Part shown: positions 1,551 to 2,066 of the stretch, one piece after another
Layout of the letters: every line of letters begins with the position of its first letter
Numbering within the stretch: position 1 is the stretch's first letter
From: the human T2T-CHM13v2.0 reference genome, Homo sapiens
NCBI RefSeq assembly: GCF_009914755.1
Contig: NC_060930.1
Length of the DNA: 64,000 nucleotides
Direction: 5' to 3' (one strand)
Position numbers and translations under genes: made by a program
The notes under the pieces: model-generated
The model's input: the letters and a program-made list of their open reading frames with translations, nothing else
Database searches by the model: none
What the model was told of the DNA's origin: nothing

Positions 1551-2066
1551 TTTTTTTTTTTTTTTTTTTGAGACAGAGTCTCAAAAGCACCCAAAGAAAT
1601 GTTCCTTAAAATATATGTACATCATGGAAGAGAGATATATGCACAGAACAAACAGATGCTAACTATATACCTTTTCACATCAGCCATAATTCTGCAAGGC
1701 TCATTAATTCAAGGAGATTTACCAAGCACCATTATAATTTAAAAAATTAACCCTCTAACAAATTGCGGCATGGTGAGCTTTGGTGACTTTGTAAAGACAT
1801 TTTGTAGTAACTTTGTCTGGAGTGCAGAGGTGCGATCTCAGCTCACTGCAAGCTCCCCCTCCCGGGTTCACGCCATTCTCCTGACTCAGCCTCCCGAGTA
1901 GCTGGGACTACAGGCACCCGCCACCACGCCCGGCCAATTTTTGTATTTTTAGTAGATGGGGTTTCACCGTGTTAGCCAGGATGGTCTCGATCTCCTCACC
2001 TCATGATCCACCTGCCTCAGCCTCCCAAAGTGCTGGGATTACAGGCATGAGCCACCCTGCCTGGCC
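1551..2066 (-). mobile_element. AluY interrupted by a 232-bp templated insertion
   Basis: Poly(T) then gagacagagtctc, insert, then ctggagtgcag. AluY diagnostics gcaagctcc, cacgccattctc, gtgttagccaggatggtctcgatctcc. 17-bp TSD aaagtggg(c/a)cacatttc at 1534-1550 and 2067-2083. Confidence 0.95.
1586..1817 (-). repeat. Inverted copy of 329-560 inserted in the AluY
   Basis: agcacccaaagaaatgttcc...gacattttgtagtaactttgtc is the reverse complement of 560->329. Confidence 0.97.

What the first reader, a model, noticed from the sequence alone, without database searches (positions are those of the whole stretch)
1551..2066. AluY carrying a 232-bp inverted copy of neighbouring unique DNA: possible out-and-back template switch onto a local (nascent RNA?) template
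Seen: after the poly(T) and only 13 nt of Alu (gagacagagtctc), the sequence switches to a gap-free reverse complement of 329-560 (7/232 mismatches). It then returns to the Alu at ctggagtgcag, about 15 nt of Alu (gctctgtcgcccagg) being lost. One 17-bp TSD brackets the whole composite. The donor end (gtctgtc) resembles the lost Alu segment (ctctgtc), a possible microhomology. Established: in target-primed reverse transcription the first cDNA strand starts at the poly(A), so here it is the + strand, and L1 ORF2p can jump templates. Inference: the insert is complementary to the + strand, so its template was +-sense nucleic acid ~1 kb upstream. That fits a nascent + strand pre-mRNA or a displaced strand, copied before RT returned to the Alu RNA. 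The alternative is a later break in the Alu repaired by MMBIR/FoSTeS or Pol theta templated synthesis.
Basis: partly seen in the sequence, partly recalled or inferred. Interest (0 to 1): 0.8.

Follow-up and report, generated by a model that had tools for sequence, protein, structure and literature searches.

The report
Alu split by inverted local DNA copy
An Alu repeat in a FARS2 intron carries, just after its tail, a 232-base backwards copy of unique DNA lying 1 kb upstream, which looks like a known kind of DNA copying error whose timing cannot be settled from one genome.

Summary
Window 1586-1817 is a gap-free reverse complement of 329-560, with 7 of 232 mismatches. It sits inside a minus-strand Alu bracketed by one 17-18-nt target-site duplication. 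The 232 nt occur only twice in the 3.1-Gb assembly, so the donor is unique DNA.

New details:
- Three filler A's lie between the 13-nt Alu stub and the insert. With the first insert base they form a perfect 9-bp hairpin with the poly(T), a snap-back signature.
- Two of the seven mismatches cluster at the return junction.
- About 15 Alu bases are lost.

Anchor-pattern scans of the same genome found sister events. The clearest is an Alu on contig 1, interrupted mid-element by a 139-nt inverted copy of unique DNA 1.3 kb upstream.

My best reading is fold-back or template-switch synthesis from a break or stalled fork in the Alu, closed by end joining. However, nothing here separates reverse-transcriptase switching during integration from later DNA repair, because no primate orthologues are available. 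This is a new member of a known kind, of moderate interest.

The parts
329..560 (+). Donor: unique intronic DNA, retained in place, source of the inverted copy
   Evidence: 232-nt ungapped inverted match; only two copies in the whole assembly. Not in the hub's list of masked repeats.
1533..1550 (+). Left target-site duplication (CAAAGTGGGCCACATTTC)
   Evidence: family D3: 18 nt, 94% identical to 2066-2083.
1551..1569 (-). Alu A-tail, read as 19 T on the + strand
   Evidence: sequence read directly.
1570..1582 (-). 3'-terminal 13 nt of the Alu (GAGAC-AGA-GTCTC), itself a small palindrome; point of departure
   Evidence: The same 13-mer is the first anchor of 70,664 Alus. Hairpin shown.
1583..1585 (+). 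Filler AAA. With A1586 it makes four A's complementary to the last four T's of the tail, a snap-back signature
   Evidence: the alignment starts at 1586; 9-bp stem TTTTGAGAC/GTCTCAAAA, -6.9 kcal/mol, z -6.4, reached by 0 of 200 shuffles.
1586..1817 (+). Inverted copy of 329-560 with 7 mismatches. The last 7 nt (1811-1817, CTTTGTC) could instead be Alu-derived
   Evidence: Mismatches 1811 and 1813 cluster at the junction.
1818..2065 (-). Rest of the Alu (right and left monomers), resuming about 15 nt beyond the departure point
   Evidence: Metazoa_SRP partial hits at 1818-1934 and 1951-2065 on the minus strand. One search gives the normal anchor spacing. The hub masks 1815-2070.
2066..2083 (+). 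Right target-site duplication (CAAAGTGGGACACATTTC)
   Evidence: family D3.

Best explanation
This is a DNA-level templated insertion made after the Alu was already in place. The steps below are inferred unless marked as shown.

1. A break or collapsed fork arose in the Alu's 3'-terminal palindrome next to the T-run.
2. The 5' strand was resected, so the + strand became a 3' single-stranded tail of more than 1.3 kb.
3. The 3' end (...GAGTCTC) first snapped back on its own GAGAC/T-run and added 3-4 A's.
4. It then folded back further and primed on its own strand at 560, with 1 nt of overlap (A).
5. It was extended for 232 nt down to 329. This gives an inverted copy while the donor stays intact.
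6. The new strand unwound and was joined to the other break end. That end had lost about 15 nt. The join used 1 nt of overlap (C) or the imperfect match GTCTGTC/CTCTGTC. The gap was then filled.

A leading-strand switch to the lagging-strand template of the same fork (FoSTeS/MMBIR) gives the same product and is counted as a variant of this explanation.

Shown directly: the anatomy, the uniqueness of the donor, the hairpin, and the sister loci. Inferred: the break, the resection, the enzymes and the timing.

Consequence, predicted but not tested in cells: in + sense RNA, which is the sense of FARS2 pre-mRNA, the two arms pair into a 232-bp duplex.
For: - Geometry. An inverted copy of same-strand sequence 1,025 nt to the tail side of the breakpoint, with the donor retained, is what fold-back priming on a resected 3' tail produces. 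The yeast study PMC11724301 (passages read) documents this hybrid route: one end primes on a fold-back, and the displaced strand is captured by the other end through end joining with 0-5 bp of microhomology.
- Snap-back. The filler A's complete a perfect 9-bp hairpin with the tail. The same feature, an A-run after GAGTCTC that mirrors the upstream T-run, appears in 3 other composites: L033 (11-nt exact inverted match to the adjacent T-run), L039 (T7/A7) and L043.
- Junctions. There is a 3-nt filler at one junction and 1 nt of overlap at the other, a small loss of about 15 nt, and 2 of 7 mismatches within 7 nt of the return junction.
- Not tied to the first bases of reverse transcription. Sister locus L048 on contig 1 has an Alu interrupted mid-element by a 139-nt inverted copy (9 mismatches) of DNA 1,288 nt upstream. 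Those 139 nt also occur only twice in the genome. Fillers of 15 and 11 nt flank the copy and no Alu base is lost.
- Other local cases. L043 carries a 71-nt, 95.8% inverted match about 1.3 kb downstream. L035 carries about 115 nt copied in direct orientation from 655 bp upstream.
- Precedent. Template switches that create inverted copies arise in ordinary human DNA independently of retrotransposition (PMC5453318, passages read).
Against: - Nothing dates the insert relative to the Alu. Donor and copy differ by 7 of 232 (3.0%, about 1.5% per lineage). My by-eye count against a recalled Alu consensus gives about 2% at non-CpG sites. The two are compatible with equal ages.
- A fold-back loop of about 1 kb is far longer than the 41-nt loop studied in yeast. 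The published human scans looked only within 100-200 bp.
- The best microhomology (TCTGTC, shared by donor end and Alu) would predict retention of GCCCAGGC, which is absent.
- All sister cases were found inside Alus, because the scan used Alu anchors. They therefore do not show independence from retrotransposition.
- Composites at the Alu 3' end were somewhat more frequent than at two interior control sites. If real, that would fit an integration-linked origin. See the full report for the counts and their weakness.
Confidence: 0.58

Rival explanations
1. The event was coupled to integration. During target-primed reverse transcription the first-strand cDNA stopped after 13 nt, snapped back, and was extended on a local + sense template. 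That template was either nascent FARS2 pre-mRNA or the resected or displaced + strand DNA of the primary end. The cDNA then returned to the Alu RNA about 15 nt further on and completed the copy. A variant places the excursion in second-strand synthesis.
For: - One TSD brackets the whole composite.
- The + strand is the first-strand cDNA and the needed template is + sense, which is the sense of FARS2 (hub annotation).
[quoted passage not shown] That paper's model lets the primary RT end self-anneal and switch templates (PMC11702581, section 7 and figure legends read).
- Composites of the form T-run + 13-nt stub + foreign DNA + Alu restart exist elsewhere. L039 restarts from a new T-rich tail, L043 restarts at GACAGAGTCTC, and L035 does likewise. 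These look like aborted and resumed copying.
- Site counts: 6 composites among 70,664 anchored Alus at the 3' end, against 0 foreign inserts in the 100 rows shown of 491 at control site A.
- The ages of Alu and insert are compatible.
Against: - In PMC11702581 the locally templated pieces were attributed to processing of the reciprocal end, not to an excursion inside the retrocopy.
- Return to the same RNA a few bases on, without usable homology, needs an extra assumption.
- The 6-nt match that could guide the return predicts 8 bases that are absent.
- The sister locus L048 has the same geometry about 150 nt into an Alu, with fillers on both sides and zero loss. That looks like end joining at a clean break.
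- The site comparison is post hoc and weak. At control site B long foreign inserts also occur.
Confidence: 0.27
2. A ready-made fragment was captured. A free 232-nt piece was ligated in either orientation into a double-strand break in the Alu by end joining, without priming from the break end. The piece could be a cDNA of FARS2 intronic RNA, or a displaced or over-replicated DNA flap from 1 kb away.
For: - Both junctions have almost no microhomology and one has a filler.
- Copy-paste insertions at breaks with the donor retained are described in yeast and human cells (PMC11724301 introduction, passages read).
- L049 and L034 carry foreign inserts with no donor within +-2.5 kb and +-5 kb respectively, so non-local capture into Alus happens.
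Against: - The donor lies only 1 kb away. Of the 9 foreign inserts tested for donors (plus this locus), 4 have donors 0.65-1.4 kb away. That points to tethered, primed synthesis rather than free fragments.
- The filler is exactly what snap-back priming from the break end yields.
Confidence: 0.1
3. The structure is an assembly artefact of T2T-CHM13 at this locus.
For: None found. This reading was considered only because inverted repeats can mislead assemblers.
Against: The copies differ at 7 positions spread along the 232 nt, including a CpG/CpA difference. The composite is flanked by a matching TSD. An artefactual join would give identical copies.
Confidence: 0.01

Closest known systems
Template-switch mutations of the 'four-point' model (Loytynoja & Goldman 2017, PMC5453318; Walker et al. 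2021, PMC7954356)
   Same: The growing strand leaves its template, copies nearby sequence in reverse complement, and returns close to where it left. This creates an inverted repeat, and the donor is kept.
   Different: The published scans looked within 100-200 bp and left out masked repeats (methods passage). Here the jump is 1 kb, the copy is 232 nt, and the target is an Alu. For PMC7954356 I saw only the search listing and the start of the abstract.
Fold-back-primed templated insertions at double-strand breaks, closed by end joining (yeast, PMC11724301)
   Same: The insertion is an inverted local copy. One end primes on its own resected strand, and the other junction has 0-5 bp of microhomology. 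Very short snap-back additions occur next to the break.
   Different: Most yeast events are under 14 bp, up to about 150 bp, with a 41-nt loop. Here the copy is 232 nt with a loop of about 1 kb, in a primate germline. No genetics is available.
MMBIR/FoSTeS templated insertions at human rearrangement junctions (e.g. PMC8421209, PMC5120786, PMC6902434)
   Same: Short stretches are copied from nearby DNA in direct or inverted orientation. Junctions show microhomology or imperfect homology, and point changes occur near junctions.
   Different: Those are usually seen at breakpoints of larger copy-number changes or in tumours. The MMBSearch tool looks for templates within 100 bp. Here the insertion stands alone, with no larger rearrangement seen in the window. 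Of PMC5120786 and PMC6902434 I saw the search listing and the start of the abstract only.
[quoted passage not shown]
   Same: Local genomic sequence is included within a retrotransposition product that keeps its poly(A) and TSD.
   Different: The authors place the extra DNA at the reciprocal end and attribute it to end processing. Here it lies 13 nt from the tail, with the retrocopy continuing on the other side. Their supplementary figures S9 and S10 could not be seen.
L1 chimeric insertions formed by RT template switching to other RNAs (U6/L1 and others; PMC13174262, PMC4476161)
   Same: Two templates are copied into one insertion inside one TSD.
   Different: In those chimeras the second template is joined at the 5' end of the first, and the copy does not return to the first template. 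Here the Alu continues after the excursion, and the insert is unspliced intronic sequence from the same locus. Of PMC13174262 I read only the abstract and outline. Of PMC4476161 I saw the search listing only.

Membership tests
Alu SINE inserted by L1 target-primed reverse transcription | Dimeric 7SL-derived body | tested here: met
   two Metazoa_SRP partial hits on the minus strand (1818-1934, 35.7 bits; 1951-2065, 37 bits). Both are below the SRP gathering score, as expected for Alu monomers.
Alu SINE inserted by L1 target-primed reverse transcription | A-tail and flanking target-site duplication | tested here: met
   19 T at 1551-1569. TSD of 18 nt with 1 mismatch (D3).
Alu SINE inserted by L1 target-primed reverse transcription | L1 endonuclease-type nick site (TTTT/AA-like) at the tail junction | tested here: inconclusive
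   Read: the empty site would be ...ACATTTC/CAATAA, a loose match only. The consensus is recalled.
Alu SINE inserted by L1 target-primed reverse transcription | Subfamily AluY | not tested
   No repeat library is available. By recalled diagnostic positions the right monomer is Y-like and one left-monomer motif is Sc-like.
Templated insertion by fold-back / template switch (four-point model, MMBIR-like) | The insert is a copy of nearby sequence and the donor is retained | tested here: met
   both copies are present, 1,025 nt apart, and are the only two in the genome.
Templated insertion by fold-back / template switch (four-point model, MMBIR-like) | Reverse-complement orientation, with return close to the departure point | tested here: met
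   Return is about 15 nt beyond departure, judged against the normal spacing.
Templated insertion by fold-back / template switch (four-point model, MMBIR-like) | Microhomology at the switch points | tested here: inconclusive
   There is 1 nt (A) at departure after a 3-nt filler, and 1 nt (C) at return. Alternatively there is an imperfect 5-of-7 match CTTTGTC/GTCTGTC.
Templated insertion by fold-back / template switch (four-point model, MMBIR-like) | The host sequence existed intact before the event | not testable with these tools
   This needs orthologous loci or other haplotypes. None of the collections holds primate genomes.
RT template-switch chimera (U6/L1-type) | The second template is an RNA, and the switch joins it to the 5' end of the first copy | tested here: not met
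   The Alu copy continues after the insert. Whether the template was RNA cannot be told, since the insert is collinear unspliced intronic sequence.
Twin-priming 5' inversion | The inverted segment derives from the same retrotransposed RNA | tested here: not met
   The inverted segment is non-Alu local DNA. Both Alu parts have the same orientation.

The most novel reading that the evidence does not exclude
The composite was made in one step during Alu integration. The L1 reverse transcriptase, 13 nt into the Alu RNA, lost its template at the terminal palindrome, snapped back, and then copied 232 nt of nascent FARS2 pre-mRNA held nearby by a polymerase stalled at the nick. It then regained the Alu RNA. 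The stub-plus-restart composites L035, L039 and L043 would be products of the same early instability. That would make intronic Alus occasional recorders of nascent host transcripts.
Probability: 0.08. Interest if true: 0.75.

Novelty: new member of a known kind. Interest (0 to 1): 0.4.

Why it matters
The locus is a clean, datable example of a kilobase-range, 232-nt inverted templated insertion in the primate germline. That size and distance fall between the short template switches found by alignment scans and the large rearrangements studied in patients. The interrupted Alu makes both junctions readable to the base.

With the sister locus on contig 1 and the stub-and-restart composites, it suggests that Alus can serve as markers for counting such events genome-wide. 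It also suggests that the palindrome next to the Alu tail may favour snap-back.

If primate orthologues showed that Alu and insert arrived together, the event would be evidence for an out-and-back excursion of the L1 enzyme in vivo, which I did not find described.

The pair of arms is also predicted to form a 232-bp double-stranded stretch in FARS2 pre-mRNA. That stretch is not Alu-derived and could be a substrate for RNA editing or sensing.

Tried and rejected
- Dating the insert against the Alu was rejected as uninformative. There are 7 differences in 232 nt, against a handful of non-CpG differences from a consensus that I could only recall, and the intervals overlap widely.
- Extending the homology across the filler was rejected. 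The donor reads AAAAAAACAC before the match, so a 3-nt gap would add only A's. The ungapped 232 nt was the best local alignment.
- The unfiltered pattern gave 1,587 hits, mostly ordinary Alus followed by a second Alu, and was useless without negative filters.
- Control site A with one filter was swamped by a recurrent small deletion in the Alu: 491 hits, of which only 100 were shown. It gives only a partial control.
- Testing whether the 3' end is a hotspot was inconclusive (counts in the full report).
- L037 and L040 proved to be sense-strand Alu ends. L038 and L042 were chance anchors next to other repeats. L041 is a tandem triplication. L044 and L046 are older Alus followed by another Alu. 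L047 is a 5'-truncated Alu with its own TSD. L050 is a nested Alu.
- Donors for the L033 and L034 inserts were not found within +-5 kb, nor for L049 within +-2.5 kb. Elsewhere in the genome was not searched.
- Gene context of the sister loci could not be examined, because no annotation is available for them.

Full report
**1. What is there**

The + strand reads as follows:
- left TSD, 1533-1550;
- 19 T, 1551-1569;
- the last 13 nt of an antisense Alu, GAGACAGAGTCTC, 1570-1582;
- AAA, 1583-1585;
- a 232-nt ungapped reverse complement of 329-560, at 1586-1817;
- the rest of the Alu from (C)TGGAGTGCAG to its 5' end, 1818-2065;
- right TSD, 2066-2083.

One search lists 7 mismatches. One (1767) is CpG in the copy against CpA in the donor. 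Two (1811 and 1813) lie within 7 nt of the return junction.

Rfam places two 7SL-like monomers on the minus strand at 1818-1934 and 1951-2065. The Alu body therefore starts exactly where the insert ends.

In this genome 70,664 places carry the two anchors GAGACNGAGTCTC and CTGGAGTGCAG 13-17 nt apart, typically filled by GCTCTGTCGCCCAGG. Here that filling is missing.

The 232 nt occur only twice in the 3.1-Gb assembly. Within the window this is the only high-identity inverted pair; the other four of the five pairs found are 80-84% pairs at masked repeats.

**2. Junction anatomy**

Departure:
- The Alu stub is itself a palindrome (GAGAC AGA GTCTC).
- The four A's that follow it mirror the last four T's of the tail.
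- Folded as single-stranded DNA, 1551-1590 gives a perfect 9-bp stem: -6.9 kcal/mol, z -6.4, reached by 0 of 200 shuffles.
- I read the filler as a few bases of snap-back synthesis. This is an inference.

Return:
- The donor, read in the insert's sense, ends AAGTCTGTC and then continues AAAACAG.
- The Alu normally has CGCTCTGTC and then GCCCAGG.
- The locus has AACTTTGTC and then TGGAG.
- Either the copy runs to 329 with two nearby changes and 15 Alu bases lost, or it ends at 336, the Alu resumes at CT(C>T)TGTC, and 8 bases (GCCCAGGC) are missing.
- The shared TCTGTC may have guided the return, but on its own it predicts the 8 bases that are absent. This remains unexplained.

**3. Strand logic**

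The T-rich + strand is the first cDNA strand of this Alu, and a + strand that grows through 1586-1817 must read a + sense template from 560 down to 329.

Three things supply such a template:
- FARS2 pre-mRNA, since the gene is on the + strand (hub annotation);
- the lagging-strand template of a fork moving rightwards;
- the + strand itself, once a break at 1582 has been resected and the strand is a 3' tail that can fold back.

The last needs no second molecule. It explains why the donor lies on the tail side of the breakpoint, about 1 kb away.

**4. Sister events in the same genome**

I used the Alu anchors as probes, with negative IUPAC filters that exclude the normal continuation. The one-filter scans have an expected sensitivity of about 0.32 for a random insert.

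Both filters at the 3' site gave 1 hit genome-wide, which is this locus.

The first filter alone gave 28 hits. I read 13 of these in full (this locus plus 12 fetched loci) and judged the other 15 from the 80 nt printed. The second filter alone gave 10 hits. I read 3 in full and judged 7 from the print.

Six composites have a T-run, the 13-nt stub, foreign sequence, and then Alu again:

| Locus | Position | Insert | Donor found |
|---|---|---|---|
| this locus | window 1586-1817 | 232 nt | inverted, 1,025 nt upstream |
| L033 | contig 7, 152,489,018 | 49 nt; bases 3-13 are an exact inverted copy of the adjacent T-run | no other donor within +-5 kb |
| L034 | contig 7, 125,045,542 | 32 nt | none within +-5 kb |
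| L035 | contig 5, 155,099,000 | about 115 nt (see below) | direct, 655 bp upstream |
| L039 | contig 4, 143,316,711 | T7, stub, A7, then a new T-rich tail and a full Alu | none beyond the A-run |
| L043 | contig 19, 7,249,822 | stub, A5, purine-rich run, about 105 nt unique; Alu restarts at GACAGAGTCTC | 71 nt match at 95.8% inverted about 1.3 kb downstream; low complexity, so only probable |

L035 in detail:
- T12 and the stub are followed by about 115 nt: 59 unique nt, a T-run, and about 45 nt of an older Alu.
- This was copied in direct orientation from 655 bp upstream, with 3 of 59 mismatches in the unique part.
- There are 4 nt of microhomology (TCTC) at departure.
- The return is hidden in Alu-Alu homology.

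A seventh composite, L045 on contig 17, leaves 8 nt later and carries a 43-nt Alu-like inverted piece.

**5. Control sites**

Site A (ATTCTCCTGCCTC ... CTGGGAYTACA):
- 237,083 anchored Alus.
- With both filters, 3 hits, none foreign.
- With one filter, 491 hits, of which only the first 100 were shown. These were all small deletions or tandem duplications, plus one Alu interrupted by a short stretch and a second Alu.

Site B (TTTTAGTAGAGAY ... CCAGGMTGGTC):
- 222,525 anchored Alus.
- With one filter, 41 hits. Many are short inserts that begin TAAAA, mirroring the TTTTAG of the anchor, or are tandem duplications.

The three fetched from site B:
- L048 (contig 1, 92,044,858) is a true sister. The Alu is cut between ...GAGAC and GGGG... 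with no base lost. It carries a 15-nt filler, a 139-nt inverted copy (9 mismatches) of DNA 1,288 nt upstream, and an 11-nt filler. The 139 nt occur only twice in the genome.
- L049 has a 185-nt foreign insert without a donor within +-2.5 kb.
- L050 is a nested Alu.

Rates:
- At the 3' site, 6 composites among 70,664 anchored Alus, of which 3 are long (over 100 nt).
- At site A, 0 among roughly 54,500. This is the shown fraction, estimated by me from contig lengths.
- At site B, 2 confirmed long foreign inserts among 222,525, plus unfetched candidates.
- These comparisons are post hoc and small. I draw no hotspot claim from them.

What the scan does show is that locally templated patches from 0.65-1.4 kb away recur in Alus: 3 inverted and 1 direct. 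They are not confined to the first bases after the tail.

**6. Mechanism**

Fold-back or template-switch synthesis from a DNA end accounts for:
- the inverted orientation;
- the retained donor;
- the side and distance of the donor;
- the snap-back filler;
- the near-absence of microhomology;
- the small loss;
- the clustered changes at one junction.

Precedents read:
- the yeast hybrid route of fold-back priming plus end joining (PMC11724301);
- human template-switch mutations in ordinary DNA (PMC5453318);
- MMBIR-type templated insertions (PMC8421209).

The same chemistry could have acted on the TPRT intermediate itself. Cell-culture L1 expression yields chimeric and locally templated insertions. 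The authors' model allows self-annealing and template switching of the primary RT end, although they assign the local pieces to the reciprocal end (PMC11702581). Their supplementary figures could not be seen and may bear on this point.

I therefore put about 0.58 on a post-integration DNA event and 0.27 on an integration-coupled event, of which about 0.08 is for a nascent-RNA template. I put 0.10 on capture of a ready-made fragment and 0.01 on an artefact. The remainder is left open.

**7. Age and consequence**

With 3.0% between the copies, about 1.5% per lineage, the event is old. By commonly quoted primate rates (recalled) this is roughly the time of the great-ape ancestor or earlier. The structure should therefore be shared by great apes, which makes the orthologue test practical.

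As RNA in the FARS2 sense, 325-1821 folds with the two arms paired almost end to end in both the minimum-energy and centroid structures (-715.9 kcal/mol; no shuffle control at this length). Editing or sensing of this duplex is a prediction only.

**8. Novelty**

The kind of event is known, and this is a well-preserved, unusually long-range member. My literature searches found no description of an out-and-back excursion inside an Alu, nor of kilobase-range fold-back inserts in Alus. These were three full-text keyword searches of an open-access library, so absence from print is not shown.

Noticed in passing
L048 (G000 contig 1: 92,044,858-92,045,064; donor 92,043,459-92,043,597): An Alu is interrupted mid-element, with no Alu base lost, by a 15-nt filler, a 139-nt inverted copy (94%) of unique DNA 1,288 nt upstream, and an 11-nt filler. 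The 139 nt occur only twice in the genome. The geometry is the same as at the window locus.
   Followed up: yes
L035 (G000 contig 5: 155,099,000-155,099,135, minus strand): T12 and a 13-nt Alu stub are followed by about 115 nt copied in direct orientation from 655 bp upstream: 59 unique nt, a T-run, and about 45 nt of an older Alu. A younger-looking Alu body follows. There are 4 nt of microhomology (TCTC) at departure, and the return lies inside Alu-Alu homology. A TSD was not established.
   Followed up: partly
L039 (contig 4: 143,316,711) and L043 (contig 19: 7,249,822): Both are stub-and-restart composites. A T-run, GAGACAGAGTCTC and an A-run mirroring the T-run are followed by a fresh T-rich tail and full Alu (L039), or by about 190 nt and an Alu that restarts at GACAGAGTCTC (L043). 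They look like aborted and resumed copying.
   Followed up: partly
One search hit list (Alu interior site TTTTAGTAGAGAC): Many of the 41 hits carry short inserts beginning TAAAA, which mirrors the TTTTAG of the anchor, or tandem copies of the preceding about 25 nt. Small snap-back and slippage events therefore seem common at this Alu position.
   Followed up: no
window 1885-1936 and 2016-2067, minus strand: Rfam mir-1268 matches (64.4 and 20.4 bits, both below the gathering score of 83) lie inside the Alu. This is the expected look of an Alu-derived miRNA family, not evidence of a gene.
   Followed up: no
window 1891 and 2379 (hub annotation): The RefSeq table lists exons of other FARS2 transcripts ending at 1891, inside the Alu body, and starting at 2379. 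No GT follows 1891 in the sequence, so this looks like a transcript end rather than a splice donor.
   Followed up: no
window about 930-1080: This stretch reads like an old MIR-type repeat, judged by recalled resemblance only. It lies in the 1,025-nt spacer between the two arms.
   Followed up: no
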